DNA of 56,798 bases, filler included, from Stramenopiles sp. TOSAG23-3 (GCA_900128585.1; 6 parts of 6 records of this genome joined end to end with filler, not necessarily neighbours in it), one strand, 5' to 3'. Counted from the whole stretch's first letter, positions 6,566 through 54,933 are shown. Program-made: numbers and translations. The notes: a model not told the origin generated them from the letters alone.

Positions 6566-6871
6566 TCCCCCAGCTTCGAATCTTGCCTAGCCTGAGTGAG
6601 GCTGAAACGTCTTATATAGCACGAGCAGAAATACGTTCGTCAAAAATGCTGACTGCACCTTAGCGTCGAATGATTTACGTTTTGAACCGTCCTATTCATA
6701 ATTCTTCGTGCAGAAGGGGTATGATATAAAATGGTCGACGATTGCGAGAAGAAGAAGAAAGAAGAAAAAGAAAAAAAAAACAATATAATAAAGATTATCA
6801 GTAATGTAAATAGGTGTTTAACATTATAAGTACATATTTATAGTAGTCTAAGAAGTACCTCGCTGGCGCCG

Positions 6872-15800: not shown

Positions 15801-16853
15801 GACCACGGTATGTTGCTCCTCTGCTGTCAGCTTTTCTTTTTGTAGAGACGCTTTGCTAGCCCTCAATTGTTCCTTTAATTCTTCGTACTTTGCATTCAAC
15901 GCTTCCAGTTCTTTTCGCGCCGATGCAGCCTCGTCGGTGTTCGATCGCACCGCAACCTCAAATTCGCTTCGCTCCTTGGACAGGTTCTTCTCGATTTGAC
16001 CAAGAGAAAGGGCCTTCTGCTGCAGCTTTGTTTCTTCCCGATGCAGTTGGTCGAATTTTTCCTTGTATTTCTTTTTCAACTTGCTTTCCCTCACTTTCAA
16101 GTCTGCCTCCTTGGCTTCCACCGTTGCGTTGAAAGCAGAATCCATTTTCTTTCGCTGTGCCTCCAACGCCGCTTCCTTGGCCTTTGATTTTGATTCCAGC
16201 GCTGCCCTTTCTCGCTGAACGATGGCTTCGACGGATTTTGCTTCAGACTTCATCTTTTCGTCGAACTCTTCGGCCTTCCGCTTCATTTCCGCTTGAAAGG
16301 TTTTTCTTTCGTTGTCCAAACTGCGAGTGAAGGCCTCCCGCTCTTTCTTCAAGGCCAGCCCTTCTTTCTTTATCCGGGACTGTTCTTTTTCAGCAGCAAC
16401 TTTCATTTGCGCCTCTTTTTTCTTTGTCGACGCCAACAGTTCTTTTTCTAATTTTTTTGTCTTCTTTTCCAACTCCATTTGTAGCTTTTTGGCTCGTTTT
16501 AATTCTAGGTCCGCGGCCGCTTTCTCTTTCTTTATGATGACGCCTTGCTGAGAGGACAGGTTGGTGATTTGGTTCGCCCTTTCGATCAAGTCTTTCTCCC
16601 TCTTGTGAAGGGCCTCGCTCAACTTCTTCAGCTCGGTTTCCTCCTTTTCTATTTTCCGCTGGCGCGAGAGGAGCGACACCGTTTGAGTCTTGAGTGACTT
16701 TTGCTGTACAGTGAGCTCTTCCTCTTTGGCGCGCGCCGTTGCCATAAATTGTCCCGCCTCCTGCGTGTGCGTCGCTGTCATCTGTGCCAATTTTTTCTCT
16801 CGGAGAAGCAGCTTGTTCTCTCGACTTTTGTACTTCTGCTCTTGCTTCGAGCT
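6872..16853 (-). CDS. Giant (>3300 aa) coiled-coil protein, 5' truncated, split in the ORF track by two N gaps
   Basis: ORFs 10119-16910, 9358-10005 and 6872-9208 are E/K/R/Q/A-rich heptad sequence. The frame resumes after each gap (ALEETRNKVEEAWGKLEKK), so the breaks come from estimated gap lengths. Confidence 0.8.
9340..10325. repeat. Internal direct duplication (period about 760-770 nt) in the coiled-coil gene, each copy containing an N gap
   Basis: 9358-9429 matches 10119-10190, and 9472-9550 matches 10242-10320. Confidence 0.9.
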
Positions 16854-16922
16854 GATGACAGCGACGCACACGCAGGAGGCGGGACAATTTATGGCAACGG
16901 CGCGCGCCAAAGAGGAAGAGCT
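16714..16922. other. Fold-back inverted duplication at contig end (probable MDA/assembly chimera)
   Basis: 16854-16922 is the exact reverse complement of 16714-16782. Confidence 0.85.
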
Positions 16923-17022
16923 NNNNNNNNNNNNNNNNNNNNNNNNNNNNNNNNNNNNNNNNNNNNTTAATTAATTAANNNNNNNNNNNNNNNNNNNNNN
17001 NNNNNNNNNNNNNNNNNNNNNN
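16923..17022. other. Artificial contig linker (N-TTAATTAATTAA-N)
   Basis: Six-frame stop linker at 16967-16978 flanked by Ns. Confidence 0.97.
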
Positions 17023-20000: not shown

Positions 20001-22569
20001 CCAAACAAACATAGAGAAGGTCTCTGAAATTAAGGAGAACTCATTCCAAACTCGACTGGAGGAAGAAAAGAGGAGAGCTAAGTTGGATAAAGATAGGACA
20101 TGCGCACTTCTCCTGGAAGAGTACCGCCACAACAAAGACTCTGCAATCGGAGCCCTGAAGCGAATGGAGGATAAGCGTAGGGAGGAAAACGCGCTAATGG
20201 CGGCGGAAGATGTAAAAGCTAACCGAATGAGAGAAGACGAACGACTCCAGGGAGCATTGCGCCACGCAGAAAAGATGCACGCAGACAATGTTGAAAACAT
20301 AAACAATCAGCACAGTGATATGGTAGATTCGATGAACTTAGACTTCTCTCATAAATCAAAAGAAGCATTTGAATTGTCCGAAAAAGTGAAATTGGAAGCT
20401 ATTCAGGCCACCGAGCGAGAAGCAGGAAGACAGCAAGAAGCAGCGCTTGAATTAGCAGCAAAAATAGCAGAAGAAGCCCGACGAAAGCAGTCGGAGGAGG
20501 CAGCAGCGAATTTAAGAGAAGCAGTAGCTGTAGCCGAATCTGCGCTGAAAGCCATCCACGACGATCAAACCAATCGTATGAAGCTCGAGCAGGCAAAAGA
20601 GTTGCAACGCGCTAGTGATAGACTTCGGGAAACGCAAGAGGAAATGCGCAAGCACGAAAGGGAGTCTTTGGGACTTGCCGCTGACCAAGCATCCAAAGCT
20701 CAGAAACACGCACTGGAAGTTTTGGCTTTGCAGAAGCAAAAAGAATTGGAGATTGCTATTGCACAGCAGGTGTCTGCACGCCATGCTGAAATAAATGACT
20801 TGAAAAAAGTCTTTGAAAAGGAAAAAACGCATTACTTGAAAGAAGCCGCTGAGCAATTTGAGGAGCAACTGGCAGGACAGAGACATAAAGCTAGAGAAAA
20901 CTTGCAATCGGAGCTGGCAAAGGCTGCCGCTGAGCGTGAGTCGATGCTAGAGAGTCTGCGCGATAAAGCCGACAAGATGAAGACTGCGGCTCTTCAATAC
21001 CAAACGTCGAAGTGGCAAGCCACATTAAAAGAATGCATGGCCGAAGCAGAAAAGGAAAAGGCGAAGCTTCAAGCATACATGGAAGACGCAAAAGTCAAGG
21101 CTGTGGCGGCAGAGAATGAAGCTGGAAATAGTCGTCTTGAAGATGAACAAAAGCTGGCAGAACGGAAGTTGAAAGATGAGTTGGAGAAGGCTCAAAAAGA
21201 AGCATACAATATCAAGGAAGCAGCCCTTAAAGATCTTGACGCAAGAAAGCAAGCAGCCCTAGAGGGTGCACTGGAGAGAGCGCGGGTTCACACAGAAAAT
21301 CAGCTAAAACAGAAGCAGCTAGATCACGAAGAAATTCTACGCCAAAAAGACTCCGCAAACGATGCGGCAGCCGAAGTAGCATTAAAGCTTGCGCACACAA
21401 AGCAAAAAAATGCTGTTGCACAAGCAGAGGCAAAAGCGGCAGCAGAGCGTGACTCTGCGCTGCGAAGAGCTGTTGCAGAGTCAAAACGACGTGCTGACAC
21501 TGTCCGAAGCGAGTGCTTAAAAGAGCAAGAGCGTGTAGTTGCCGATTTAATGAATAAACACAACGAAGCCATGTCCAACGCTCTTGAGGCTGCTCGAACG
21601 GAAAGAGAGAAGGCTCTTCAAGATTTGGCAGAGCGAGCTCGAAGAGAGTTAGATCACGCTGTCCAAATGTTAGAAAAGCAAAGGGAAAAGCAGGTAGGCC
21701 GATTAACAGACGCATTGCAAAAGTCAGAGAGAGAGAAGGCTGAAGCAAAAGAAGATTTGGACAATCTCCGAGACCAGCTAGAAGAGTCTGAGGATCAAAA
21801 TTACGATTTGAAGAATCAGTTGTCTGGAGTACGCCGTGTAGGGGTAATGCAACGACTCTATTTGATTTCCTCCAAAATTCGAGAAGCCAAGAACGAGAAG
21901 AAATTACTTGCTGACGCTCGGCTTGAGAGTGACGCTCGAATCAAGCAATTATCGAAACAAAAGGATCGCCAAATAGATACGCTGCGGGACAAAAATAGCA
22001 TACTTGACGCAGAGGTACGTCTTCACGAAGAAACACGGGCAGCCATGCACGACACGTTAGTGAACCACAAACGTGCCATGCTTATGGAACATAAAGTTCA
22101 AAGCACGGTTTTACAAAAGGATTTAGCCGCACTCATCGAGCAGAAGGATGAAGTTGACAAGCAAAGAAATGCTCTAGTCAAAGAAAACGCAAGACTGGAA
22201 GGTACAGTCAAAGAAATTGAAAGACAGATTCACGAGATGAGCAAGCAGAGTGCTATTCAAGACGGTCGAATTAATGTCGCACACGCCAAGAAGAAGAGAC
22301 GTTTAGATCAAGAGTTTGAACGGGTTCTTGAGAGAGTGCAAGAGAAACGAGACCATCTATCCAGAGTCGAAAAGAAGTTGCAGCAGCTAGACGATGCAAG
22401 ACAAGACAAAGAAGATGAAATGAAAGAACTTGAAAGGAATCTAGTTCAACTATTAGTGGAACAACAGAAGAAATTATTGTCAGTCTTGCAGACAAGTAAA
22501 TCAAACTCAAAAGCTGCCAAGAAAAAAGCAAGCATGGACGAGAGCCAGAGAAAAATGTTGACTGACTAA
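17023..22569 (+). CDS. Large coiled-coil protein (>=1835 aa), 5' truncated by the contig start; possibly centrosomal/ciliary
   Basis: Uninterrupted ORF with a low-complexity N-terminal part followed by long heptad-rich sequence. Internal repeat LRAQLTSEIKCRSDLE / VRSQLASEIRCKEDLE. Localisation is a guess. Confidence 0.8.
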   Translation, partial: FEELLTTSSDGKSLHGVAALQACLPRNARSSSSSNVFQAEYRSDTAPGTVPKVTTKTVVVDAAPGGNRRSLVVSESRNVNKELESTLFNTVKFIEGSARVRIKNLTGNFIADKNGMLWLSNFHQIALEPTKHDSEKTDHDEQPLPPSSLSGGGSNGTSVRLLAMKRERERRSEGQGNNDGGGSGAAGSKSSKAHILNYEEAEAPDSREGVPGQFSLRNSELERPSFPGSRGGKGKNKISRLKTLEKSKLKDQQDRNSQSTPNDDSTEGSLPSSSKGGKLSKQANAEIEESRFRSEALVVELSEATEKIEKMEARLRAESTVNARLTERLQALRKQAHKDMTMEKEHESEITGRLRRNLEAAVAKCQESEDRCTALTINISELQSSVSQLQIRLDSETKAADRESNRSKELSKKLANTQREFARAMREKDEHVRREVLATEERMNREMSQRPGTSENGQGSPTAKHLIRTVDELNKKLSLQQTEHASLQAELVTRNRLELLEREEEFQKQSNSDRQNIQQMEDRIQELQSQMCIMVKDVSISKKREEELNRRLSAADAEKSRVQDELMVAQQSIKAVQSMGDGSVGSADLQQASQVSAMKATSEAKIRQLNNEVDFLRAQLTSEIKCRSDLETGLQNTNEKYLSSKERWETALGDLENSKRESMRELEDRFRQELLIPQEEVHRLEDKVQALQKNLGEMVKDLSLARKQTESLSRAKQALTHERDGLQDRVAHYVNEIQGMKSKAKESLTKNSAEAAFRTTVETDMRKLQHELEYVRSQLASEIRCKEDLETALSQAEHQMDSQQRMYSKELEDQVLKYREENSKTIQRESGLRDAKIALDGEVLNLSKQLADLKKSYAKLRDQHRVDVGQLDATKQSASRLEVALQNARGTLKREKNAADSAQKRHERAMAAIQQTVKEMSDAKNAAISAADEQIKSNMAKVSATQREMLTLKDHMKYEKGQHQKLIATERMGNALQGWLLRRSKEKFDHWRVQTNIEKVSEIKENSFQTRLEEEKRRAKLDKDRTCALLLEEYRHNKDSAIGALKRMEDKRREENALMAAEDVKANRMREDERLQGALRHAEKMHADNVENINNQHSDMVDSMNLDFSHKSKEAFELSEKVKLEAIQATEREAGRQQEAALELAAKIAEEARRKQSEEAAANLREAVAVAESALKAIHDDQTNRMKLEQAKELQRASDRLRETQEEMRKHERESLGLAADQASKAQKHALEVLALQKQKELEIAIAQQVSARHAEINDLKKVFEKEKTHYLKEAAEQFEEQLAGQRHKARENLQSELAKAAAERESMLESLRDKADKMKTAALQYQTSKWQATLKECMAEAEKEKAKLQAYMEDAKVKAVAAENEAGNSRLEDEQKLAERKLKDELEKAQKEAYNIKEAALKDLDARKQAALEGALERARVHTENQLKQKQLDHEEILRQKDSANDAAAEVALKLAHTKQKNAVAQAEAKAAAERDSALRRAVAESKRRADTVRSECLKEQERVVADLMNKHNEAMSNALEAARTEREKALQDLAERARRELDHAVQMLEKQREKQVGRLTDALQKSEREKAEAKEDLDNLRDQLEESEDQNYDLKNQLSGVRRVGVMQRLYLISSKIREAKNEKKLLADARLESDARIKQLSKQKDRQIDTLRDKNSILDAEVRLHEETRAAMHDTLVNHKRAMLMEHKVQSTVLQKDLAALIEQKDEVDKQRNALVKENARLEGTVKEIERQIHEMSKQSAIQDGRINVAHAKKKRRLDQEFERVLERVQEKRDHLSRVEKKLQQLDDARQDKEDEMKELERNLVQLLVEQQKKLLSVLQTSKSNSKAAKKKASMDESQRKMLTD

Positions 22570-33918: not shown

Positions 33919-34018
33919 NNNNNNNNNNNNNNNNNNNNNNNNNNNNNNNNNNNNNNNNNNNNTTAATTAATTAANNNNNNNNNNNNNNNNNNNNNNNNNN
34001 NNNNNNNNNNNNNNNNNN
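33919..34018. other. Artificial contig linker
   Basis: TTAATTAATTAA at 33963-33974 within Ns. Confidence 0.97.
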
Positions 34019-40892: not shown

Positions 40893-41158
40893 TATTGCGG
40901 ATCCTCCCCAAGTTCTGGTCAAGATTCCANNNNNNNNNNNNNNNNNNNNNNNNNNNNNNNNNNNNNNNNNNNNNNNNNNNNNNNNNNNNNNNNNNNNNNN
41001 NNNNNNNNNNNNNNNNNNNNNNNNNNNNNNNNNNNNNNNNNNNNNNNNNNNNNNNNNNNNNNNNNNNNNNNNNNNNNNNNNNNNNNNNNNNNNNNNNNNN
41101 NNNTTTTTGAGGTGCTCGTTGTCTGTTGTACTGCTCTATGAAATAATGATCGGTATTG
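40893..41158 (+). repeat. Dispersed element, copy 2 (gap inside)
   Basis: Both flanks of the N gap match the reverse complement of 2147-2276. Confidence 0.78.
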
Positions 41159-41465
41159 AGTTTGATCGTTTCGGGTTCGTATCATCTTCTCATTTTATTT
41201 GAATTCGATGAACATATTTTATTATAATTAATACAACTATAATAAAGCTAATAACAAAAACAACAAAAGACTACTCGGTTCTGTTCCTTCTTCTTCTTTC
41301 TCTAATGCTCCAATCGTCAGCATCGTCCCCCCCGCCTTCAAACGCGTCGAAAGCGTCGAACAGGCCAAATGGTAAGGTCGTCTTTAAGATGCGAGGAGCA
41401 GCGTCCCTCAAGGCTCTTCTTTCCGGCTGATAGGTTACAGCATCACATAACCGGAGGCAACTCAC

Positions 41466-44400
41466 TCAAATTTCAAAATTTCCTATTTCGGCGTATGAAT
41501 CGAATGGACATGAATCACCTGAAGTATTTGAAAAAGTCACGCAATACGGTAGTGGGGTTTCTGACATTATTCTTTTCACCTCACTCAATTGACAAGGTTG
41601 TTCAATATCGCGATCCCCAATTTTCTTTAACATTAAGCCATTTGGAGTGGCTACTCCTCCTGGATCTATACGTTCAAATTGAAGGGCCAACGGGAAGGTA
41701 GGCTGCATGGAGGGCAGGGTTTTGGTCGTCATTCCACGCTCAAAGATAAAGCCAGTTTCACCCTCTCTGGGGACATTAAATACAATTGAAGTTGTAGGTT
41801 TTGGTATAAATACATTTGAAGTTGTAATCCCCCTACAGAATTGCACTTTATATGGTCGTGTTTTTTGTTCGAGAAGGTTCTCCACAACTACCCATGGATA
41901 ATCAAAAACCCAATCTTCTCCAATCTTCGCTAATGTCATTCCAATTGGAGAGCCTTCGCCACGAAGTCTTTCTTGTACTCCTGGAGACAGTTTTTGTAAT
42001 TTGTGAGTGTTGGAAATGGAGGGTTTATACACAAAACCAGGTAGACCATCTGTTGCAACATTAAATACTACTGTGCGACGCATTTCTCGTGCGACGTATG
42101 TCTCCGGCGTCTCCGGCACGTGAGCGAACGTTACTATATACGGTCGTTGGGTTTTTAAAAACAGATTTTCCACCTCTTTTTGCTGACAATTACTAACGGG
42201 TTTATCTCCAATCTTCGCCAAACGCAATCCAATCGGAGAACCACATTCTGGAGGACTTTTTCTGTTAGCAGTTCCATCCTTTTTTACCAGCAATAAATAT
42301 AATCTGGAAACCTGCCAATTTCTGTGAATGTGGAGACGAAAACCAAGTGGAACATCCCCACTAATATGAAATAAAACTTCTTTATTTATAATTGGCCCTC
42401 TGACAGACGGTTCACATGACAACAATTCGATATTGCTACTTTTTCTTTTAACGTTGCACCATTCAAGTGCTTGCCGAAAGGCGTATTCTGTGGGGAAATT
42501 AGTATAAGAAAAGTCTAAGTGAACTAACGAAGTCTGAAAATAAACGTCATGGTAAATTGCGCGTGTAAATTGATCCGATGCTGACCCCTGTTGATCTTGG
42601 ATAGACCAGAGATGTTCATTATGTGAAATATTCAAGGTCTTTAATACACAGCTTTCTTTTTTAATATAGACGGCAATATCTTTGGCACCGTCTGGCCCAA
42701 TACGATTTCGAGAAAGATCCAACCAGGTGCATGAATTACATGCCCTAATCGCCTGAAAAAGATCACGACAATAGAAAGAATTTAAGTCGTTTCCAGATAA
42801 ATTAATTTTCTGCACATTTATCATTGTGTTTAGAGGAAGAGCAGGGGGAGGTTGGCCGAACCCCTGGTCGTTTGAAAAATCAATCGATGTAATATTCTTG
42901 TGTTCACACAATTCCAATATTATCATAATGTCAATTGCGTCTGAATAATGGAGTGTGGGTGTCATTCTTAGTTCAGACAAGGAAAGTACACAGCAACTCA
43001 TATTAACATATTCTATTGATTTCTGAACTTTTAAAGCATTAACAATTGCTGTTTTAGTTGGCTCAGTAATACGCTTAACAAAGCGACTATCCCTGTGTCT
43101 TGGGGGAATTGGCATACTTATTCTTTCTTCCCTGAAGAAATCACTCTCTATTCTTTCTTCCCTGAAGAATCTGTTGTTTGAAATGTTCAGAAACAGCAAG
43201 TTTTGAAATTGAATATTTTCAAGTTTAGAAAAAAGGTTGGTAATACCTGTTGCACCAATTTGATTGTCTTGAAGATGTAGTGCTTTTAAATTGGGCATTT
43301 TTTTAATTGCATCTGCAACGCTGTTCATGCTGTACCCATACAAGGATCTAATGCTGTTTCCTGAAAAATCAAGAAATTTTATAGACCCACAGTTTTCATT
43401 CTCCTTCAAGCAGCACATTAGTGTAATAATTATAGCGTCGGTTAGGCGTGCGTTTTGAATATTCTGTGTCATTACAGTAAGCCCAATCTTTTCCCAAGTA
43501 TCTTTCCCGCCAAATCTTTCGCCATTATAGTCTTTCACAACTGGCAGCCTTATTCTGAATCTGTGGTTTCTGAAATTAAGAAACAGATCTTGGAATTTGG
43601 CATTTTGTAAAAAACCTCGAACAATATACGGTAGTAATCTTAGGAACTGCCCAGGGGTCTCCCACATCCGATCTGTGCAGTCGATACTGTATGACTGACA
43701 GGTAAAACATTTTGCAGCATATTCGACATCTTCAAATTCTGCATAATAATCCTTGAAATATTGGAGAGCCTGATCTAATCCACCGGTAAAGTTCTGTGGT
43801 TGACCCTGAGTTCCCCTGGTTCTTCCGGTAAGACGGCGGATGTACCGTTGTTGTACAGCTTTCAGTAACTTTCTTGCTTTTAGGAAGGCTTGTAATTCGG
43901 TCAGCGGCTTATCATCAGAAGATGCAACATCATTAACATTATCATTATCATTATCAAGTTGACCATTCGTTTTTCCTTCCTCCCCCGTGCTAGGTTCTTG
44001 CTGGATTTCGCCAATAATTTTGGAAAGGTCCGTTTCCAGCTCCAATTCTTTCAAAATATCAATTAAAACTGCCATATTCGGCATACTTTTTTTCTTGAAA
44101 CCATCCCGCCGTCTTGTAGGAGAGCGACTCCTGGAGCGGCGAGCACTTGAGTTTCCACCCCGGGATTGTTGTCCATGATTGCTTCGTTTGCGCTTTTTTG
44201 TGGTATTCTTTTCAGGCAAAACAGTGTTTATAATTATTGATGCCCGTTTACCAAAGGGGTTATTTGTATTTTTTGAAGCATGCAATCGCAAACAACGACC
44301 AACATTTTGAGTTATCTTAATGCTAGACTTTGATGGATCTGCAAAAATCACTCCATTGCAAGTCTTAAAATCTACACCCTCGCCAAGAACCCCAACATTA

Positions 44401-46023
44401 CACAACAATGAATACTTTCTTTCGCGAAATTTAGTAATTTTGTTGTTGAAAGAATTGTTCTTCTTCGAGTTTTGTCCCCGATTCTTCTTAGACTCATAGC
44501 CCTGACTGCGATCACTAGCGTTAACTTCGTCGACGTAAAAATTTTCCAAAAAATGCTTTTGGTCTTCAGTGGGAAATTTTTGCAGCAGAATTTTTGCAAA
44601 GTTTTTGACAAGAAGTTTAAAACTTTTTGATCTCGCAATTAGAGAATGGAATGAAATCATTCGAAATGGCATTGTTTGGAAATCGGTTTCATTCGCAATT
44701 TTATGCGTTTCAAGTGTATGGAATACAATTGGATTCCGTTTAACAATTTCCTTATGCTTTTCATTTTCATTCCATCTTCCCATACGTTCTTTCCGGACAT
44801 CAACTCCTTGGTCTGCCCATTCTTTGTCCCACATTTTTTTTAATGTGGTGTAATCCGCGTAAGTATTTACCATACTCTCTGCAACTACGTAAGCTAATTG
44901 CACAACGTCCATGGAGACATTACAGGGGTCAATATCTTCTGCAAATAGGCTAAAATTGATTTCAAATCGGTTCTTCCCGTCAAAAATGATTTCGTCGATT
45001 TTCGTTAGACGGGCAGTTTTTATGCTGTAAGAATAATTCGATAAAACGTTGTCTGCAATAGCATGTTGAATGGTGTAGCGAGCAACATCTTGTCTTTGGT
45101 CATAGTCGTGATTGGGATGTAGACTCAAGATATTCTCTCCAAATGCTTCTGCGTTGTTAATGTCAAACGTCTTGTGTTGGTCGTTTTGAAGGGAATAGAC
45201 TTTTGGTGTAGCCGTTAAAAACAATCGGTACTTAACCTTACTGTCATCAACATGCATCATCCATGTTCGTTTTTTTTCATCCATAATATGGTGTGCTTCG
45301 TCATAAATAGCAAGGTTGATCTGAAAAGTGAGTTCAAGCTCGTTGATTTTGTCAAAGAAGAAGGTTTGACTTTGATATGTAACAATTATCATGTTTTTTC
45401 CAGCGCGTCAATTTTTGTTCTATTTGATTCGTTTTTTCACTAGAATTTTTATCATAGACACAAAGAAAGTTTTCTCTATCCACCCGGTCTCCTCCGATCA
45501 ATGATATCCCTGATTTTTCTTCAAACTTTCTCATCTGAGAAAATTCATTTTGCCATTGTTCCGCTAAGTAAATGGACGGCACAGTGACCATGATAATTTG
45601 AGACAGTGCTTTGTCTTCCCTTTGCCCAAAAAGGTAGTTTGTAATGAGTTGTGAAGTAACCGTCTTACCAGTACCAGGTGCCATAACAAGGTACCCTCTC
45701 CTGCGCTCTGAGTGAAAAAACGGCCGCAATCCCTCCTCCCCCCTCATGATATTTAGTACATCTTGTTGGACTTTGCGCAAAGTAATTATACCAGGAGCAT
45801 TCTCGTCACTTGATTCGGGCGATATGGAACCCAAACCAGCAGACATTATTGAATCTGAACCTGATTCTCGAGCCCCCGCACCGGATTCTCCAGCCCCCGA
45901 ACCGGATCCTCGAGTCCCCGAACCGGATGCTCGAGCCCCTGAACCAGATTCTTGAGCCCCTGAACCGGATTCTCGAGCCCCTGAACCGGATTCTCGAGAC
46001 CCTGAACCGGATTCTCGAGACAT
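41466..46023 (-). CDS. SF2 DEAH helicase (type III Res/type ISP/giant-virus-like) fused to RI-like LRRs and three PDZ-like repeats; one frameshift near 45395
   Basis: Q-motif LRKVQQD, Walker A MAPGTGKT and Ia VPSIYLAEQW (ORF 45352-46023). TYQS, DEAHH, LTATPK, V VLGEGVD and VI QNVGRCLR (ORF 41466-45392). About 9 LxxLxLSxN LRRs; three PIG(L/M)xLxKIG..RPYxVxF units. Confidence 0.8.
45855..46022. repeat. 21-nt minisatellite x8 (CTGAACCGGATTCTCGAGCCC) encoding (RESGSGA)n
   Basis: Eight tandem units counted directly. Confidence 0.95.
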
Positions 46024-47051
46024 TATGTTTGCTTTGAATCTCTTATATGAGTACTTTGCCTTTCTCTTCGTTTCGTTGGGAACTTATGAACTTCAATTTT
46101 AATATACTCAGAATAATGTTCTTGACACAAATCACGGACGCTGCGGATTAATTTAGCTGGATTCATATTGAAAACTATTTCATTATGCCCGCGAAAATTA
46201 GGAGTCTTTTTCCTAAGTTTCATATGTCCTTTGAACCTTAGTCCATATGGCTCGCCGTCAAATAGTCTCGTTTCAATTCGCTTGGCAAACCATTCAAGAT
46301 CAATGTACTCAGTTCCAATTGAATCATTTGTCGTAAAAAACTCTTTGTCAATGGGGAAATATTCGCCAAACATTTTTTTAAAACCTTCAATTTCGTCATC
46401 TGTTTGGTTCATAGCAGATTTGAATTGTGTTTTGAGATAGCAACACAAAGCTTGGTGCGAAAACGTTTCTTTATCAGAACTATGTTTTATAACATCTGAG
46501 TACAACGTTTCCAGATAAGCCTTCGTTGGAAAGAGTTGCGCTTCCATGTATATTTGCCACATCAAGCGCACATTTCCTGTCGGTGTGACCAGACCTTCAA
46601 TTATCGATTTAACTTGTATGGTAAAACTATATTTCTTCGGATCGCCGCTGTGAGCAGCAAAACTGTCGGAGCGATTATACCTTTTTAACCGATGAAAGAA
46701 ACTGCCTGTTGTGCCACATTTGAAAGGTTTGGTTTTCAATACATAATTCTTCAATTTCTCTTTTTCTAAATTGAGTGCAACACCTTCATTTCGAATCTTA
46801 TATTGATAATTTGCTATGTCTGATTGACTTTGGACAAAATTAATCCTTTTTTTTTCCTCGTCTCCCTCGTAGAACTCGGGAACATGGAAGGGGCTATAAA
46901 CAATGTAAAGTCCGCTGTCATGTGTGTTAAATTTTTCTCTGGTGCTGTCACACTCAATTCCTTCGTCTTCGTCCTCATAATCGTCGCCTTCATCTTCGTG
47001 CGTTTCGTTTTCTTCGTCGGACGTATATACACTTCCTTGGGAATCGTTCAT
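46023..47051 (-). CDS. Probable T5orf172/GIY-YIG-like nuclease-domain protein (342 aa)
   Basis: SGLYIVY...PFKCGTTGSFFHRLKRYN resembles the GxxY..(F/Y)KIGxT....RLxxYN pattern; acidic N-terminus. Assignment is by eye only. Confidence 0.5.
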   Translation of the reverse strand: MNDSQGSVYTSDEENETHEDEGDDYEDEDEGIECDSTREKFNTHDSGLYIVYSPFHVPEFYEGDEEKKRINFVQSQSDIANYQYKIRNEGVALNLEKEKLKNYVLKTKPFKCGTTGSFFHRLKRYNRSDSFAAHSGDPKKYSFTIQVKSIIEGLVTPTGNVRLMWQIYMEAQLFPTKAYLETLYSDVIKHSSDKETFSHQALCCYLKTQFKSAMNQTDDEIEGFKKMFGEYFPIDKEFFTTNDSIGTEYIDLEWFAKRIETRLFDGEPYGLRFKGHMKLRKKTPNFRGHNEIVFNMNPAKLIRSVRDLCQEHYSEYIKIEVHKFPTKRRERQSTHIRDSKQT

Positions 47052-47717
47052 CTGGTATCACTTGGTAAAATCACGTTAGTTGGCTGTGTAGATTCTGTAA
47101 AGTAGTACAGCTAAAAGCTCTAAAACTAATTTCTTCTCTCAATACTTTACAGAAATATAAAAAAGTCTGTCTATGAAAAATATCTCATTCCCAAGGATAA
47201 TTTGGTTTATTTCTAATTCAATTTTAAGAAACTCTATTCAAATGAATCGTTTCATTTATTCATTAAAATATAATTAAATCATTCTTGTCAATAATATTAT
47301 TGGCACTAATGGTAAGCAGGAACGATCCCAAATTAGATCCGAAAATCGGTGAAGTGGTGCCCTGCTATTGCCTGTACTTACCAACACAGTTTTTTAAAAT
47401 TAGAAGAAATCTTGATGATCTGTGTCAGAATTGCCTTTCTTCACCCCTGCTTCCTGCTTCCTGCTTCCCTCCTTATTGTACTGTATTATTATTAGGACTA
47501 TATATTATATAATATTATTATTATTATTTTTATTATTATTATTTGCATTTCCTTCTTCCCCAAGTACACAATGCATTTCAAGGAGAAGAAACATTGCAAT
47601 AATTAGTTATTACTCCATTGATGAATCTAATTAACAGACAAACAACGGTCCATTTAGAAAATTTTAGTCGAGCTAAGGATTTTGGGTTGTTTAGAAGCAC
47701 AATTCTGACTCGGAAAA

Positions 47718-48761
47718 ATGGAGAGCTTGGTCGAAGAGACCAGACAGTTTGCAGAAAAGCATTTGGCTGCTAACCCGACGGATATTGTTCCGGTCCGAAA
47801 CAGATTCGAAGAGGCTCTTCGTGCGGGCACTGAGGAGCTGAATCGGCACCTGGCGGATAAGACGCGTTTGCGGTGGCTGCTGCAACTGTACCAGAACTAT
47901 GTTGACGTGGAAGTCAGTAAGAGGCAATTTAAAGCTGCCAAAGCAATTTTTGAGAGAGCGACTGCGGTACCGAGCCTCCGTGCTGACACCGCCGTCTGGT
48001 TGGCGTATGCAACTTTTTTTATAACTAGAAACAAGTCTGGGAGCACGAGAAAGGTGTTTTTAAACGGCATCAAGTCTGTTTCAACAGAAGATGCAAGGAA
48101 TACGCTCTGGGATGCATTTTTAAAGTTCGAAAACAAGGGGCGGTTCATCCCGCTGACGATGCTTCAGCTGGAAAAACTGCTCGAAGAGTCCGGGTCTATG
48201 ATTGCGAAGGGGCTCAGTTCCCCAAGGGCTGCCGCCGATACTAAAAAGACGGCGCCGTCCGGTGCCAGCACCTCCGGCGGCAACGATGGCAGAAAAGGGC
48301 CCTCTCTTGTTGATCCGTCTTTGTTTGTTGTGCCGGAAGAAGAGGTCTTCTTCCTGAGCGAAAATGCTGAGCGGAAGAAAAGTTTGCCTCCATTGCGTCA
48401 GGACACAATGATGAACCTTGCGGCAATGTTCAAGTTCAACCCGGATTGCTTGTTTGAAATAGTATTGAAAATGAAAGAGTTGCAGGGTCTGATAGTAAAA
48501 GACCTGAGAGTACAAGGGAAAATTTTTCAGGAGGAAATAAAGATCGGAAAACGGAAAGTTGAAGACTTGGACTTTCGCGCGGCGGCCTCAAAAGAGTTGC
48601 GAAGAACTCGGCGGCACATGCAATCGCTTTTGCACGAGGCGGGAGTGCCCGGGGTATTTCTCACGGAGGATGGCAGCCAAATAATTTACCAGCAAAAAAT
48701 TCTTTCCGTAGTGATTGACGCGGCTGTCTTGCAAGCGTCTCGAAAGCGGAAACGGTCGTAG
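47718..48761 (+). CDS. HAT (half-a-TPR) repeat protein, probably nuclear RNA processing
   Basis: LYQNYVDVE..AAKAIFERA, VWLAYATF..RKVFLNGI and LWDAFLKFE motifs; C-terminal basic RKRKRS. Confidence 0.75.
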   Translation: MESLVEETRQFAEKHLAANPTDIVPVRNRFEEALRAGTEELNRHLADKTRLRWLLQLYQNYVDVEVSKRQFKAAKAIFERATAVPSLRADTAVWLAYATFFITRNKSGSTRKVFLNGIKSVSTEDARNTLWDAFLKFENKGRFIPLTMLQLEKLLEESGSMIAKGLSSPRAAADTKKTAPSGASTSGGNDGRKGPSLVDPSLFVVPEEEVFFLSENAERKKSLPPLRQDTMMNLAAMFKFNPDCLFEIVLKMKELQGLIVKDLRVQGKIFQEEIKIGKRKVEDLDFRAAASKELRRTRRHMQSLLHEAGVPGVFLTEDGSQIIYQQKILSVVIDAAVLQASRKRKRS

Positions 48762-48894
48762 AATTATCGGTGGGCCACCAAAGGAGGTTGTAGCCGTGAC
48801 CGTACACAATAGTACCAGTTAATATTATTTTTTAAATTGTCTTTTTATATTTAATCTTTTTTAAGTTTTTAGAATAGAGAGAGAAACAATCCTG

Positions 48895-50100
48895 TTACAC
48901 CACACTTTTGACAACGCCAACGACTGCCCCTGCAGCCTCACCGACTGCCCCTGCCACGCTTCCAACTACATTCACCACCCCGCCGGCAGCCTCAGCAACT
49001 GCTTCCAATGCACCGCCCCCAACGTTTTCTATTGCGTGGATTGCACCCTCGAAGAATCCCTCCGAATGTTCTGCCATGGCGCCGGCGCCACTCGCTAGGG
49101 CGGTGCCTGTCCCTGCCATTGCCCCAGCAACGAGGGAAGCTGTTTTTCCCGTGTTGTCGACCATCGCCCCCCCGGCACTGGATACTCCAGCGACCATGCT
49201 GGAATCCATCACTCCGTTTGCCCCCTGTACGACCATTCCAGTGCCGGCATCAAACCCATTCGATACGGTCGAGCCAACGACTGACGCGCCAACGGCAGCA
49301 CCGGCGTACACGTCTGAATTCATCGCCCCGTTTGCCCCTTGAACGACCATTCCGGTGCCGGCACCAAACCCATTCGACACGGTCGAACCAACGACTGACG
49401 CTCCAGCGGCAGCACCGGCGTACACGTCTGAATTCATCACCCCGTTTGCCCCTTGAACAACCATTCCGGTGCCGGCATCAAACCCATTCGATATAGTCGA
49501 GCCCACGATGGCCGCCCCAGACCCAATGCTGCTCAGCGCTCCGGAATTTGAAACCATGCCAGCAGTGTTGGCTGCAAATCCACCCATAGCACTGGCTGCG
49601 GCCCCACCCGTTACAAGGGCCCCGTTGACTACGGTGGCCGCAGCGCCGGCCGGCAAAGAAGTGACAACCATCGCTCCAATAACCACGCCGTCTACGGGAG
49701 AGAGAGCCCCAGACGCTGCTTGCGCGGGCCGGGTTGCGTCCTGCCCGCTCTGCGCAGTCTGGGTGACTGCTGCAGTACGCGCAACAGAGGAAAAGAAATA
49801 GTTACCGTTCTGGATGACCAGTATCGTGTCAATAAACCCGTCGCCTGTCGTGTCGAAAGAATCAACTTGGCCGTTTCCCGTCGTGTCGTAGCCGATAGCG
49901 TTCGGGCGCCCGTCGCCAGTGGTGTCGCAAGCGTACCTCGGTAGGCTTAAATTACGATAATAATGCGCCTGTTGCCGAGCGTACGCAATTTCCTGGCGTG
50001 CAGTGTACAAATTATTTACATCACTGGCGTCAAGGGGCTTGGCCGATTGATGGTTTAAGGCCGTCATGGCGTTCTGGTCAACACTTGCTCCGGCTCCCAT
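48895..50100 (-). CDS. N-myristoylated Gly/Ala/Val-rich protein with DTTGDG (DxDxDG-like) repeats and three ~38-aa tandem repeats
   Basis: MGAGAS start; DTTGDG/DTTGNG/DTTGDG; GASVVGSTVSNGFDAGTGMVVQGANG(V/A)M repeated. Confidence 0.75.
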   Translation of the reverse strand: MGAGASVDQNAMTALNHQSAKPLDASDVNNLYTARQEIAYARQQAHYYRNLSLPRYACDTTGDGRPNAIGYDTTGNGQVDSFDTTGDGFIDTILVIQNGNYFFSSVARTAAVTQTAQSGQDATRPAQAASGALSPVDGVVIGAMVVTSLPAGAAATVVNGALVTGGAAASAMGGFAANTAGMVSNSGALSSIGSGAAIVGSTISNGFDAGTGMVVQGANGVMNSDVYAGAAAGASVVGSTVSNGFGAGTGMVVQGANGAMNSDVYAGAAVGASVVGSTVSNGFDAGTGMVVQGANGVMDSSMVAGVSSAGGAMVDNTGKTASLVAGAMAGTGTALASGAGAMAEHSEGFFEGAIHAIENVGGGALEAVAEAAGGVVNVVGSVAGAVGEAAGAVVGVVKSVV

Positions 50101-50902
50101 AACAGCTCGCGTGGTTCTCTGTGGGAACTTATCTTACCAAAGCGAACGAACTTCTCCCGCCGGAAAAAGACACGGTGTGGAAACGAGATGATGGCAGTGG
50201 TTTTCTTTTGTTGTTATATATTGTATTGATGGGACGTAACATGTCTAACTGCCTACAAATTAAAATGCCTTCTCTTCTTGCAGCGTATTAGTCAGTTCTA
50301 GTATTCCTCGTAGTCGTCTCAGTTGTTGTGTTTTTTCAGTTGCTTGCATGCAGTTCTTTCGTTCTTTCGTCGTCTAATAATACTACAAAAAAATAAAGGG
50401 AGTTTTTTTAGCATCAAAATCCTTCTATCAAACCTTTAATATTTATACTTCAATACAAATTGTAAATACCAATATAAAAATTCAATTTCTAACCCTAACC
50501 CTAAAATAAAAAAACAAATAAAAGAATGAATTCTTATGCTCTGTGTATATAGTAATATATAAATATTATTCATTATATATAGGCTACGAGGATACATCAT
50601 GCATTCCTTCCAACAACAAAAGAACGTTGGTCCCTCATTGTCACGGCTGCTATCTTTATGCTATTTTTTTATTTTTAATAATTTACTGTGCTGATCCTAT
50701 ATAGATTTTTTTATAATTATTTTTTTTCCTCACTTCTTCTTCTTTGTTGCTCTGTGATTATATATTTATTTATTAGTACTAATATTCTTCCCTCACAATG
50801 CATCAGACCGTTTATCAAAAATAAATTTTAACTTCCTTTATAATATACGGTACCTGGTAGTGTGTAGCTGTTACAAAAATTCACTTTTTTTTTCTTCCTC
50901 CT

Positions 50903-51002
50903 NNNNNNNNNNNNNNNNNNNNNNNNNNNNNNNNNNNNNNNNNNNNTTAATTAATTAANNNNNNNNNNNNNNNNNNNNNNNNNNNNNNNNNNNNNNNNNN
51001 NN
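50903..51002. other. Artificial contig linker
   Basis: TTAATTAATTAA at 50947-50958 within Ns. Confidence 0.97.
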
Positions 51003-51081
51003 CAATATCCAATGCAACATCTTTTAGACGGGAACGAAGGATTGAAAGGGAATTGAGATAGTCACTGTGTGTATTTTTGCT

Positions 51082-52868
51082 AATTTCCCTAGGTGAACAA
51101 AATACTCCTTTTTCGAAAACATTTGATAGCATTTACGATGACCACTCTTCTGTCAGTATGACCACTGATGCTTTTATCGAGCGCATCAAAGCGCAAGTGC
51201 AACAAACAGAACCGTTAAGTCCATCAAATATATCTGAAGAAACACTGTCAGTGACAAAATGTATCAGTAATAATTTGCAAACATTATCGATGGACATACT
51301 GCAATTACTGCACCTCAAGAAAAATCGGTACGCATTAGAGTTCGAGATGTATAAACAAGGCCTCGTTGATAAGGCCCCAATGTACGATATTTGGCAATCT
51401 AGTGTAGGCCCAGCTGTGTATCTTACATGCGGTTTGGTTTCTATTTTGAATGAGCAAGAGCAGATGGGGTCCTTGGTATTGGAGGAGAACTCAAATCATC
51501 TCCCGTCGCGCATTTTTACGGTACAGGATTGCTGTGATTTCTTCTGGGCATTCGTTGTCGTGACGCCTTTGCCAGCGCCTCACAACAATGAATTAATTTT
51601 GCTCTTAAGGCGCACCATTCATTATGCTTCAAAACATCCCGGTGTTGATGGACAACAGGCTGCTCGATTTTCTGTTGGTATGCTTCAGCGTGCACTTGTT
51701 GAAGGAGAATCGCCGGCTTGCTGTAAAAACGATGTATTTCATGCGATACTAAAGATAGCAACGCCGTTGCTTAATACGCCCCTCGCCGGTTACAGTATTG
51801 CCCCACTCGTGGGTGTCTTGTCTAATGTCGCTGCAAGCAAACGTCCTTCTTTATGTATTATATGGAATTTGTACATGATGTCTAAGCTGTTACAGTTCAA
51901 CCATAATCAGAGCAGCACGCAAAGGCATGTTGTACATGCTAAAGAACGGTGTTCTATAACAGGGCAGTTTCCAATTATTGGTCCTCTTTACCTTTGTATT
52001 TCTAGGCCTTTTAGCATTTGCGAAGCTGCATGGAAGGATTCTTCCAACGCGGAAAGGTTTTGGGATGATATATTCTTAAAAATTAAGCTTCCAATGACAA
52101 GTGAACTTCCGCATGCCGGGCTGGTGTTTAACCTATACGACAATGCTGCGTCGGCATTTTCGACAGTACAAGATTCTCCAAAGCGTTGGGATCCAAAACT
52201 TTGCCATGAAGGTGTTAAATGTAGCAACTCTTTGTGCGTAAACAATGGTGTCATTAGGGGTACTCGATACATGTCAATTGTTGAAGACTGCTACAATTTA
52301 TGCGAAACATGCGAGGCGATTGGTTTTGCGGACTTCCGAACTCCCCGACCCATATTTGCAGCGATACGGCGACCACTTCGAAACGAATGCATCGTAGCAA
52401 TTGCAAAAAATACTGTACTTATCGATACCGTTTTGAACAACCAAAATAATGCGGCGGAGAGCTCAACCGGTAGCCTTGATGCCGGTAATAATCCAATTGA
52501 AACTTCCGCGAGTCCACGCGATGCAGAAGTAGTGACTAGCTCACAAATGTTCAACACTTTATTTGATCTTCTTACAAACATAACATTTGTGAAACCGTTT
52601 CAAATCAAATTATTTTTATTGGCGAACAGAGTGTTATGCCAAGTTTCCGCTTATGCACTGCCATACACAATAATACAAATGGTGCAAACAGAAATGTTTT
52701 CGTCGTACGTTTGGGCATTGTCATGTTCCGAGCAGCCATTTGCTTTCAGTGCCGCCTCAAGGTTGATTAATGTTTTCCTCCAGGTAATCAGCAAAAATAC
52801 ACACAGTGACTATCTCAATTCCCTTTCAATCCTTCGTTCCCGTCTAAAAGATGTTGCATTGGATATTG
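51082..52868 (+). CDS. Internal fragment of a large helical protein with two ZZ-type zinc-finger-like domains
   Basis: HAKERCSITGQFPIIGPLYLC..ICE and HEGVKCSNSLC..IRGTRY..YNLCETCE. The ORF is open to the contig end. Confidence 0.7.
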
Positions 52869-52968
52869 NNNNNNNNNNNNNNNNNNNNNNNNNNNNNNNN
52901 NNNNNNNNNNNNTTAATTAATTAANNNNNNNNNNNNNNNNNNNNNNNNNNNNNNNNNNNNNNNNNNNN
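52869..52968. other. Artificial contig linker
   Basis: TTAATTAATTAA at 52913-52924 within Ns. Confidence 0.97.
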
Positions 52969-54833: not shown

Positions 54834-54933
54834 NNNNNNNNNNNNNNNNNNNNNNNNNNNNNNNNNNNNNNNNNNNNTTAATTAATTAANNNNNNNNNNN
54901 NNNNNNNNNNNNNNNNNNNNNNNNNNNNNNNNN
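54834..54933. other. Artificial contig linker
   Basis: TTAATTAATTAA at 54878-54889 within Ns. Confidence 0.97.

What the first reader, a model, noticed from the sequence alone, without database searches (positions are those of the whole stretch)
41271..47051. Candidate nuclease-helicase-LRR-PDZ defence/sensor system in a protist
Seen: in order on the minus strand are a nuclease-like ORF, a Gly/Ser linker, a full set of SF2 helicase motifs (APGTGKT, TYQS, DEAHH, TATPK, GEGVD, QNVGRCLR), about 9 RI-like LRRs and three PDZ-like units. Known: this helicase flavour is that of type III Res/type ISP restriction enzymes and related giant-virus helicases, while RI-like LRRs are the sensor part of NLR receptors. 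Inference: the layout is effector-NTPase-LRR, like an NLR, but with a DNA translocase in place of NACHT/NB-ARC and a nuclease as effector. It could be a virus- or bacteria-derived enzyme domesticated for antiviral defence. I do not recognise this architecture as described.
Basis: partly seen in the sequence, partly recalled or inferred. Interest (0 to 1): 0.88.

Follow-up and report, generated by a model that had tools for sequence, protein, structure and literature searches.

The report
Virus-type helicase fused to LRR and PDZ-like domains
An intron-poor eukaryote carries one large, strain-variable gene that joins a DNA-motor enzyme of the kind found in giant viruses and bacterial restriction enzymes to protein-binding LRR and PDZ-like modules; the arrangement was not found elsewhere, but its proposed nuclease part and its defence role are unproven.

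Summary
The helicase-LRR-repeat fusion is real. One 1,308-codon ORF (41466-45392, minus) holds helicase motifs II-VI, RI-type LRRs and three ~100-aa repeats. A language-model search points to PDZ for the repeats; Pfam does not.

The window's two frame breaks are not in the organism's read-derived contigs. These carry 37, 23 and 27 extra bases that, by my hand reading, fuse all three ORFs into about 1,890 codons. Contigs from two other samples join across a 3,667-base deletion that truncates the gene.

The helicase resembles type ISP restriction enzymes and a family common on giant-virus contigs. That family is usually Mrr nuclease + helicase + HA repeats. None of 47 complete relatives carries LRR or PDZ.

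The window's helicase is very divergent: at most 28% identity, and unplaced in the tree. Its GC3 of 0.35-0.36 is the lowest in the window.

The "nuclease" is unsupported: no family, PDB or profile match, and both structure predictions failed.

Verdict: a new domain arrangement built on a known helicase family. Defence is plausible, not shown.

The parts
46077..47051 (-). N-terminal region, residues 1-325: an acidic head, then about 280 aa of unknown fold.
   Evidence: ORF. No hit in Pfam, PHROGs, PADLOC, NCBIfam or PDB. No homologue in the word-index search. The exhaustive phmmer search gave only 2 hits, both to internally repetitive proteins. Atlas recognition was 2350, which is protein-like, with a best hit of 0.85. 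GC3 is 0.36, as in the rest of the gene.
46074..46077 (-). Site where the window lacks 37 bases that are present in contigs of all four runs. Two variants differ in the last six inserted bases between sample S1 and samples S2/S3.
   Evidence: tables 5c and 8. By my hand reading, 37 bases move the ORF1 frame into the ORF2 frame without a stop. The window stretch 46021-46074 is open in the ORF2 frame.
45855..46019 (-). Tandem repeat of 21 nt, 7.9 copies, encoding Ser/Gly-rich heptads (the linker).
   Evidence: translation.
45394..45795 (-). Helicase lobe 1 (Walker A APGTGKT and motif Ia region), ORF2 residues 77-210.
   Evidence: ResIII at E 3.7e-13. phrog_16 DNA helicase at 8.1e-10. PADLOC PbeA at 2.8e-11. 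LlaBIII and LlaGI at 5e-3 and 9e-3.
45391..45392 (-). Site where the window lacks 23 bases that are present in contigs of all four runs. This is the apparent frameshift inside the helicase.
   Evidence: table 4. By my hand reading, the 23 bases add 8 codons without a stop and carry the ORF2 frame into the ORF3 frame.
44190..45392 (-). Rest of the helicase: TYQS, DEAHH (motif II), TATPK (III), a long insert, GEGVD (V) and QNVGRCLR (VI). ORF3 residues 1-401.
   Evidence: Helicase_C at 8.9e-08. phrog_16 at 7.1e-22. 26 relatives at E<=1e-3. The invariant family columns are kept. LlaGI and LlaBIII at about 5e-4.
43446..44189 (-). Lys/Arg/Ser-rich stretch and linker of unknown fold, ORF3 residues 402-649. 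I read the basic stretch as NLS-like by eye only.
   Evidence: Translation. Only a sub-threshold Pfam hit on residues 437-649 (Nro1, E 0.1). The NLS reading is an inference.
42417..43445 (-). About 9-10 RI-type leucine-rich repeats, ORF3 residues 650-992. They include a 30-nt tandem duplication (two identical 21-nt copies spaced 30 nt apart at 43119-43169).
   Evidence: LRR_6 at 1.7e-09. Ribonuclease inhibitor, NLRP1, NLRP3 and RanGAP in PDB. NACHT-LRR proteins were the only whole-protein hits.
41469..42416 (-). Three PDZ-like repeats of about 95-110 aa, ORF3 residues 993-1308.
   Evidence: Repeat alignment. DNA repeat families D2 and D3 at 285-303-nt spacing. Atlas scores of 0.91-0.92 to clusters carrying PDZ families. 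No Pfam or PDB sequence hit. The AF2 model was unusable.
41647..41648 (-). Site where the window lacks 27 bases (in frame) that are present in contigs of runs X1 and X2.
   Evidence: table 4. By my hand reading, the extra 9 codons make repeat 3 match the conserved Cys-Gly-Ser-Pro stretch of repeat 1.
41646..45312 (-). A 3,667-base segment absent from contigs of runs X3 and X4 (samples S2 and S3). It covers helicase motif II onward, all the LRRs and most of the PDZ-like units.
   Evidence: Joint 41645 to 45313 with 2 shared bases, one contig in each run (tables 5 and 8). The frame after the joint stops after 3 codons.

Best explanation
SHOWN. In sample S1 this is one intact, intronless gene of about 1,890 codons in an intron-poor eukaryote. 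It encodes a chimeric protein, in this order:
- an N-terminal region of about 325 aa with unknown fold;
- a Ser/Gly heptad linker;
- a complete SF2 ATPase of the ResIII / type ISP / giant-virus 'nuclease-helicase-HA' lineage;
- a basic linker;
- about 9-10 RI-type LRRs;
- three PDZ-like units.
The frame breaks in the window are short losses in the assembly. The gene is a compositional outlier and is truncated by a 3.7-kb deletion in two other samples of the same organism, so it is accessory.

INFERRED.
- The motor came from a giant-virus-like or bacterial mobile source. In that family the N-terminus is usually a nuclease and the C-terminus is usually HA repeats.
- Here the C-terminal module has been replaced by protein-binding LRR and PDZ-like modules.
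- Most likely mechanism: an ATP-driven double-stranded-DNA translocase whose recruitment or activation is set by a protein ligand bound at the LRR/PDZ end. The N-terminal region, sitting in the family's nuclease slot, would act as the output domain.
- The most probable biological role is conflict with viruses or other foreign DNA.
For: ONE GENE.
- ORF3 alone joins helicase motifs II-VI, the LRRs and the repeats.
- Contigs of four runs carry 37 and 23 extra bases at the two frame breaks. Contigs of X1 and X2 carry 27 more in frame.
- Frame arithmetic and hand translation give one open frame. The window stretch 46021-46074 is open in the ORF2 frame.
- All three pieces share GC3 of 0.35-0.36, against 0.40-0.73 for the 20 other ORFs examined.

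HELICASE LINEAGE.
- ResIII and Helicase_C in Pfam.
- LlaGI and LlaBIII are the best PDB hits for both lobes.
- Hits to PADLOC PbeA and to the NCBIfam Dnd restriction enzyme model.
- 26 protein relatives, most with Mrr_cat or Mrr_cat_2 plus HA, one with T5orf172, and one named Hyperionvirus.
- 186 relatives on viral contigs; 4 of the 5 best-ranked loci carry GVMAG names.
- Of 47 complete relatives: Helicase_C 46, ResIII 44, HA 23, Mrr_cat_2 22, Mrr_cat 5.

ATPASE LIKELY ACTIVE. All family-invariant columns are kept despite 22-31% identity.

LRR TYPE..

PDZ-LIKE..

ACCESSORY. Deletion joint in X3 and X4, with a stop 3 codons after the joint.
Against: - No evidence of any kind identifies the N-terminal region. 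There were no Pfam, PDB or PHROG hits. hmmsearch against the relatives' Mrr-like N-termini gave 2.3 bits. hhalign probability was 0.1-0.4%. BLASTP against a T5orf172-helicase gave E>=1.8. AF2 gave pLDDT 31.6.
- PDZ identity rests on a language-model lead only. Pfam gave nothing at E<=10, the repeat profile found no PDZ in PDB, and AF2 gave pLDDT 32.2.
- The helicase is on a 2.8 end branch against a median of 0.4 and is not placed in any clade, so a viral origin is not demonstrated. Low GC3 could also reflect low expression.
- No RNA data, no paralogue in the window, and no orthologue anywhere. There is therefore no evolutionary evidence of conserved function.
- The four runs belong to one study, and X1/X2 may be the window's own source, so the intact form has no fully independent confirmation.
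- The deletion in two samples could equally mean that the gene is decaying.
Confidence: 0.4

Rival explanations
1. A remnant of integrated giant-virus or other mobile DNA with no host function. On this reading a single viral gene, possibly already carrying LRR/PDZ-like modules, landed between host genes and is now decaying.
For: - GC3 is the lowest in the window.
- The helicase family is abundant on giant-virus contigs and also occurs on records classed as proviruses.
- Two of three samples carry a truncating 3.7-kb deletion.
- No orthologue was found in any collection searched.
Against: - The S1 allele keeps about 1,890 open codons and every invariant helicase residue.
- No other viral gene, terminal repeat or target-site duplication was seen around it.
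- A host-type HAT-repeat gene starts about 670 bases upstream of its start codon.
- 0 of 47 relatives, viral ones included, carry LRR or PDZ.
Confidence: 0.25
2. A non-immune nuclear DNA-remodelling or repair factor. The LRR and PDZ-like modules would simply tether the motor to a scaffold, as LRR-and-PDZ scaffold proteins do.
For: - Lys/Arg/Ser-rich stretches that look like nuclear localisation signals (inference).
- LRR plus PDZ is a scaffold combination in the animal LAP proteins. I saw this only in the abstract of PMC11387733 as listed.
- Weak NCBIfam hits to Hef and RadD.
Against: - The gene is deleted in two samples, so it is dispensable.
- It has no orthologues.
- The helicase's nearest families are restriction, defence and viral enzymes, not eukaryotic repair helicases.
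Confidence: 0.2
3. An artefact: a chimeric assembly or a dead pseudogene, as the two frame breaks in the window suggest.
For: - The window is a chain of contigs joined by N-TTAATTAATTAA-N linkers. I read one; four more have the same 44+12+44 spacing.
- The window differs from the read contigs at three places in this gene.
- The X3/X4 allele is truncated.
Against: - Contigs made from the reads by another assembler, in two runs, span 41200-47300 with 0 base differences apart from the three extra stretches. Those stretches restore one frame.
- The helicase-LRR-repeat part is one 1,308-codon ORF even in the window.
Confidence: 0.05

Closest known systems
Uncharacterised 'Mrr-like nuclease + ResIII/Helicase_C + HA repeats' helicases of giant viruses, proviruses and environmental contigs (for example the Hyperionvirus superfamily II helicase, P0009)
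   Same: The helicase core shares 22-31% identity and all invariant motif columns. It also shares the family-typical stretch after motif III and the three-part layout: N-terminal module, motor, C-terminal module.
   Different: - There is no detectable Mrr_cat_2 or T5orf172 domain at the N-terminus.
- There are no HA repeats. The C-terminus is RI-type LRR plus three PDZ-like units, seen in 0 of 47 relatives.
- The branch is very long.
- It sits in a eukaryotic chromosome context.
Type ISP restriction-modification enzymes LlaGI and LlaBIII (PDB 5ffj, 4xqk)
   Same: They are the best solved matches to both helicase lobes. From recalled knowledge of these enzymes, the concept is the same: a nuclease slot, then an SF2 double-stranded-DNA translocase, then a targeting module.
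   Different: The E-values are only 5e-4 to 9e-3. No Mrr nuclease, methyltransferase or target-recognition domain was found by Pfam. Targeting would be through protein-binding modules, not DNA sequence.
NLR / STAND immune receptors (for example NLRP1, NLRP3, NLRC3-like)
   Same: The LRRs are of the same RI type. The only whole-protein hits in 5.8 billion proteins were NACHT-LRR proteins, matched through their LRRs. The layout is N-terminal module, NTPase, LRR.
   Different: The NTPase is an SF2 helicase, not NACHT or NB-ARC. Extra PDZ-like units follow the LRRs. The N-terminal module is unidentified.
LAP (LRR and PDZ) scaffold proteins such as Densin-180, Scribble and Erbin
   Same: LRRs are followed by PDZ-type modules in one chain. 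The family description comes only from the abstract of PMC11387733 as listed, plus recall.
   Different: LAP proteins have no helicase. Their LRRs are, from recall, of another subtype and N-terminal. The units here do not reach any Pfam PDZ model.

Membership tests
SF2 helicase, ResIII type (PF04851 + PF00271) | Both RecA-like lobes, with Walker A, DEAH, motif III, motif V and motif VI | tested here: met
   ResIII at E 3.7e-13 and Helicase_C at 8.9e-08, both above the curated cut-offs. Motif strings located. Invariant family columns kept.
Mrr-nuclease + helicase + HA family (giant-virus / environmental) | Helicase core related to the family | tested here: met
   26 protein relatives at E 7.7e-11 to 1e-3, 186 viral loci and 273 metagenome loci. 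However, the end branch is 2.8 and the sequence is unplaced.
Mrr-nuclease + helicase + HA family (giant-virus / environmental) | N-terminal Mrr_cat or Mrr_cat_2 PD-(D/E)xK nuclease | tested here: not met
   No Pfam hit at E<=10. hmmsearch with the relatives' N-termini gave 2.3 bits. hhalign probability was 0.1-0.4%.
Mrr-nuclease + helicase + HA family (giant-virus / environmental) | C-terminal HA (PF03457) repeats | tested here: not met
   No HA hit on ORF3. 23 of 47 relatives have it.
T5orf172 / GIY-YIG nuclease | Match to PF10544, PF13455 or PF01541, or to a protein that carries them | tested here: not met
   No Pfam hit at E<=10. BLASTP against the T5orf172-helicase P0019 gave E>=1.8. In the Atlas a GIY-YIG cluster appears only at rank 16 with score 0.82, below the lead threshold.
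T5orf172 / GIY-YIG nuclease | GIY-YIG alpha/beta fold with the catalytic Tyr, Arg and Glu | tested here: inconclusive
   AF2 on a single sequence gave pLDDT 31.6, so no fold search was possible. A motif resemblance seen by eye is not a test.
PDZ domain | Match to a PDZ profile (PF00595, PF13180 or PF17820) | tested here: not met
   0 Pfam hits at E<=10 for each of the three units. The profile built from the three repeats found no PDZ in PDB.
PDZ domain | PDZ fold | tested here: inconclusive
   Atlas features scored 0.91-0.92 to clusters carrying PDZ families, and 10 of the 10 best family-bearing hits shared that family or clan. The tool warns that a third of shuffled proteins also reach 10 of 10. 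The AF2 model had pLDDT 32.2.
NLR / STAND receptors | STAND P-loop NTPase (NACHT or NB-ARC) | tested here: not met
   No NACHT or NB-ARC hit. The NTPase is SF2.
NLR / STAND receptors | C-terminal RI-type LRR sensor | tested here: met
   LRR_6 at 1.7e-09. Ribonuclease inhibitor, NLRP1 and NLRP3 LRR matches.
Type ISP restriction-modification enzymes | Methyltransferase and target-recognition domains after the motor | tested here: not met
   No methyltransferase family in Pfam, PADLOC or NCBIfam. The only hits are to the ATPase part of such models.
Anti-viral defence system (functional class) | Protects against infection; induced or variable in populations | not testable with these tools
   Only the presence/absence variation between samples was seen. 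No RNA holder was listed.

The most novel reading that the evidence does not exclude
A eukaryotic single-chain immune receptor-effector built on a different engine. An SF2 double-stranded-DNA translocase captured from a giant virus or restriction system takes the place of the STAND NTPase of NLRs. RI-type LRRs, helped by PDZ-like units that may hold the protein's own hydrophobic C-terminal tail until a ligand arrives, sense a viral protein. The motor then drives an unrecognised N-terminal effector along foreign DNA. The presence/absence variation between isolates would then be an immunity polymorphism.
Probability: 0.15. Interest if true: 0.85.

Novelty: new variant of a known kind. Interest (0 to 1): 0.55.

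Why it matters
If it is functional, this would be a case of a eukaryote re-using a viral or restriction-type DNA motor with eukaryotic protein-sensing modules. That would be a second route to the 'effector-NTPase-LRR' logic of innate immunity, and a possible handle on protist-giant virus conflict.

There is also a practical lesson. The gene looks broken in the assembly but is intact in the reads, so annotation of this assembly would probably miss or split it. The assembly may carry similar short losses elsewhere.

The weight of the finding is limited. There is one gene in one organism, with no expression data, an unidentified N-terminal domain and no orthologues.

Tried and rejected
- Own-genome search: no genome is held.
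No paper supplements were consulted.
- ORF1: the word-index search found none of 537 candidates. The exhaustive phmmer search over 1.84 billion representatives gave 2 hits (E 2.5e-06 and 9e-04). Both are internally repetitive proteins matched in 11 and 7 stretches, which I take as spurious.
- AF2 without an alignment failed for the C-terminal repeats (pLDDT 32.2) and for ORF1 residues 40-325 (pLDDT 31.6).
- The profile of the three repeats against PDB gave one non-PDZ hit at E 0.93.
- Close-relative scans of viral contigs and metagenome contigs found none.
A smaller alignment, A3, worked for metagenomes. I did not re-send to genome contigs, so prokaryotic genomes were not scanned for relatives.
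- I tried to fetch PDZ sequences through the genome search for a profile-profile test. The first record was not held. The second search found 0 of 5 records with PDZ and gave no loci from the control genomes. I dropped the idea.
- No RNA holder was listed for the stretch, so expression is untested.
- No flanking terminal repeats or target-site duplications were seen around the gene.
- There is no paralogue in the window.
- I considered tiny introns, programmed frameshifting (the A-run at 45394-45399) and overlapping stop/start reinitiation at 46021-46025 as explanations for the frame breaks. I rejected them because DNA contigs carry extra bases exactly there.
- Organism identity was not pursued beyond 'intron-poor eukaryote'.


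Full report
WHAT IS IN THE WINDOW

On the minus strand, three ORFs abut one another:
- ORF1, 46023-47051, 342 aa;
- ORF2, 45352-46023, 223 aa;
- ORF3, 41466-45392, 1,308 aa.

ORF1 and ORF3 are in the same frame and ORF2 is in another. The context is eukaryotic and intron-poor. Neighbouring long single ORFs carry cytochrome b5, HAT repeats, RhoGEF, PWWP/TFIIS-N, peptidase M48, RCC1-BTB and ankyrin domains. No whole genome is held for the window.

The window itself is a chain of contigs. At 16923-17022 two runs of 44 N flank the letters TTAATTAATTAA. Four more N-run pairs have the same 44+12+44 spacing; I read only the first.

DOMAINS THAT HOLD UP

- ORF2 carries a 21-nt unit repeated 7.9 times, encoding Ser/Gly heptads. 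It then carries helicase lobe 1: ResIII at E 3.7e-13.
- ORF3 starts with the end of ResIII, followed by Helicase_C at 8.9e-08.
- ORF3 residues 650-992 are RI-type LRRs. LRR_6 scores 1.7e-09. PDB matches are ribonuclease inhibitor at 1.1e-11, NLRP1 and NLRP3 LRRs at about 1e-7, and RanGAP at 1.5e-6.
- A search with the whole of ORF3 in 5.8 billion proteins returned only two proteins, both NACHT-LRR proteins matched through their LRRs.
- The last 316 residues are three repeats with 16 invariant columns.

DOMAINS THAT DO NOT HOLD UP, OR ONLY PARTLY

The three C-terminal repeats have no Pfam hit even at E<=10. A profile built from them finds no PDZ in PDB. AF2 on a single sequence gave pLDDT 32.2.

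The one positive is the language-model search. Scores of 0.91-0.92 went to clusters carrying PDZ, PDZ_2 or PDZ_6, and 10 of the 10 best family-bearing hits shared that family or clan. The tool warns that a third of shuffled proteins also reach 10 of 10. I call the repeats PDZ-like: probable, not proven.

ORF1, the 'nuclease', has nothing behind it:
- 0 hits in Pfam (E<=10), PHROGs, PADLOC, NCBIfam and PDB;
- none of 537 candidates in the word-index search;
- two spurious repeat-protein hits in the exhaustive search;
- BLASTP E>=1.8 against a relative that does carry T5orf172;
- 2.3 bits against a profile of 19 relatives' N-terminal regions, mostly Mrr-like;
- hhalign probability of 0.1-0.4% against 46 such N-termini;
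- AF2 pLDDT of 31.6.

The Atlas calls ORF1 protein-like (recognition 2350), but its best hit is 0.85 and a GIY-YIG cluster appears only at rank 16 with 0.82. By eye there are strings that recall the GIY-YIG/T5orf172 and Mrr motifs. That is a resemblance, not a test.

THE FRAME BREAKS ARE NOT IN THE READS

This is the main new result. Four public runs hold the stretch. All four belong to one study, cover three samples, and carry a coded organism name. X1 and X2 come from sample S1, which may be the window's own source.

Their independently built contigs were laid on 41200-47300. The X1 and X2 contigs show 0 base differences from the window but carry three extra stretches:
- 37 bases at about 46075 (34 letters plus a 3-base overlap);
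- 23 bases behind 45391;
- 27 bases behind 41647.

X3 and X4 carry the first two as well.

The frame arithmetic works. 37 bases moves the ORF1 frame to the ORF2 frame, and 23 bases moves the ORF2 frame to the ORF3 frame. By my hand translation neither stretch holds a stop. The window stretch 46021-46074 is open in the ORF2 frame. The 27 bases are in frame, and by my hand reading they give repeat 3 the conserved Cys-Gly-Ser-Pro stretch that repeat 1 has.

The real gene in S1 is therefore one ORF of about 1,890 codons by my count: 355 + 210 + 8 + 1,317.

Two of the three losses sit where the samples differ from one another. The 37-base stretch has two variants. The 27-base site coincides, within 2 bases, with one end of a deletion described below. 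I suspect co-assembly errors at polymorphic branch points. That is an inference and I could not test it.

STRAIN VARIATION

Contigs of X3 and X4 (samples S2 and S3) join 41645 directly to 45313, skipping 3,667 bases, with 2 shared bases at the joint. This removes helicase motif II onward, all the LRRs and most of the repeats. The frame after the joint stops after 3 codons.

The flanks are otherwise nearly identical to the window. The same organism therefore holds an intact allele and a truncated one, and the gene is dispensable.

RELATIVES OF THE HELICASE

- The best solved matches for both lobes are the type ISP enzymes LlaGI and LlaBIII, with E 5e-4 to 9e-3.
- PADLOC gives PbeA at 2.8e-11.
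- NCBIfam gives the Dnd restriction enzyme model at 1.5e-08, far below its cut-off.
- Among longer proteins, 26 relatives reach E 7.7e-11 to 1e-3. Most combine Mrr_cat or Mrr_cat_2, ResIII, Helicase_C and HA repeats. One has T5orf172 at its N-terminus, and one is named a Hyperionvirus helicase.
- Viral contigs hold 186 relatives. Four of the five best-ranked loci carry giant-virus bin (GVMAG) names, at 29-31% identity. Two others lie on records classed as proviruses.
- Metagenome contigs hold at least 273 relatives, none of them close.
- I scanned 47 complete ORFs in Pfam, chosen from the 160 loci as summed score >=85, both ends closed, >=600 aa and not duplicated. The counts were Helicase_C 46, ResIII 44, HA 23, Mrr_cat_2 22, Mrr_cat 5, LRR 0 and PDZ 0.
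- In a quick maximum-likelihood tree of 66 helicase cores, the window's sequence has an end branch of 2.8 against a median of 0.4. Its best identity is 28%, and no supported clade holds it. Rows without both motif I and motif VI were left out of that tree.

The family is clear. A donor is not.

COMPOSITION

The three pieces have GC3 of 0.35, 0.36 and 0.36. The 20 other ORFs examined range from 0.40 to 0.73. This links ORF1 to the rest of the gene. It fits a foreign origin, though low expression could also explain it.

HOW IT MOST LIKELY WORKS

Shown:
- a complete SF2 ATPase with all family-invariant residues;
- the ATPase is fused in one ORF to RI-type LRRs and three PDZ-like units.

Inferred:
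- By analogy with type ISP enzymes, whose behaviour I take from recalled knowledge, the motor translocates on double-stranded DNA.
- In the relatives the N-terminal slot is a nuclease and the C-terminal slot is HA repeats. Here the C-terminal slot holds protein-binding modules, so targeting or activation is probably by a protein ligand rather than a DNA sequence.
- The basic Lys/Arg/Ser stretch after the helicase suggests a nuclear site of action.
- The protein ends in a hydrophobic-X-hydrophobic tail. From recall, this fits a class II PDZ ligand and could allow self-inhibition. This is an idea only.
- A role in conflict with viruses is the best guess. The supports are the RI/NLR-type LRRs, helicase kin among restriction and defence enzymes, presence/absence variation, and the gene's orphan status.

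I put the whole reading at 0.4. The purely structural statements I put near 0.9.

COMPARISON WITH KNOWN SYSTEMS AND NOVELTY

It is not a type ISP enzyme: no Mrr nuclease, methyltransferase or target-recognition domain was found. It is not an NLR: there is no STAND NTPase. It is not a LAP protein. It is not a regular member of the Mrr-helicase-HA family, because both flanking modules differ.

It is a new domain arrangement built on a known helicase family. Three literature searches found nothing on it. They covered helicase/LRR/PDZ/T5orf172, Mrr_cat/ResIII/giant virus, and helicase-LRR/NLR-like/protist, and I read only the result listings and abstracts. These searches cover only the held library.

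LIMITS

- All read evidence comes from one study, and contigs hide minority variants.
- There are no RNA data.
- There is no usable structure model.
- Prokaryotic genomes were not scanned.
- The organism's own genome could not be searched for paralogues.

Noticed in passing
window 16923-17022; also 33919-34018, 50903-51002, 52869-52968, 54834-54933: The window is a chain of contigs joined by 44 N + TTAATTAATTAA + 44 N linkers. I read one; the others have the same spacing. Gene neighbourhood across these points is therefore not evidence of real linkage. The gene studied lies on the piece 41104-50902.
   Followed up: partly
window 46075, 45391, 41647: The assembly lacks 37, 23 and 27 bases that the read-derived contigs hold. 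Two of the three sites coincide with differences between samples. Other genes of this assembly may be broken in the same way. Only 41200-47300 could be checked, because one read-laying run is allowed.
   Followed up: partly
window 47120-47300: The intergenic stretch upstream of the gene is variable between samples. There are about 11 base differences within 66 bases, and several X3/X4 contigs end or diverge here (tables 3 and 7).
   Followed up: no
window 10119-16910 (-) and 17062-22569 (+): Two divergently oriented giant ORFs of 2,263 and 1,835 aa have no Pfam hit at E<=1e-4 and show strong AT and GC skew on the coding strand. A linker separates them, so their adjacency may be artificial.
   Followed up: no
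window 5600-16910 (-): Four consecutive minus-strand ORFs (321, 778, 215 and 2,263 aa) lie here. Two of the three boundaries between them hold short N runs (9430-9472 and 10191-10242). The first ORF carries ankyrin repeats. They may be pieces of one very large gene.
   Followed up: no
window 51077-52924 (+): A 615-aa ORF without a Pfam hit has the second-lowest GC3 in the window (0.40). It may be another compositional outlier.
   Followed up: no
window 40930-41103: A 174-base N run lies about 360 bases downstream of the gene's stop. It is a different length from the linkers. What it hides is unknown.
   Followed up: no
window 43119-43169: A perfect 21-nt direct repeat at 30-nt spacing duplicates ten codons inside the LRR region. 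This is a recent in-frame tandem duplication.
   Followed up: no
L001-L160 (relatives of the helicase): The C-terminal module of this helicase family is variable. Besides HA repeats, some members carry INT_rpt (5 of 47), PMBR (3 of 47) or Bro-N (1 of 47). One protein relative, P0019, has T5orf172 in the N-terminal slot.
   Followed up: partly
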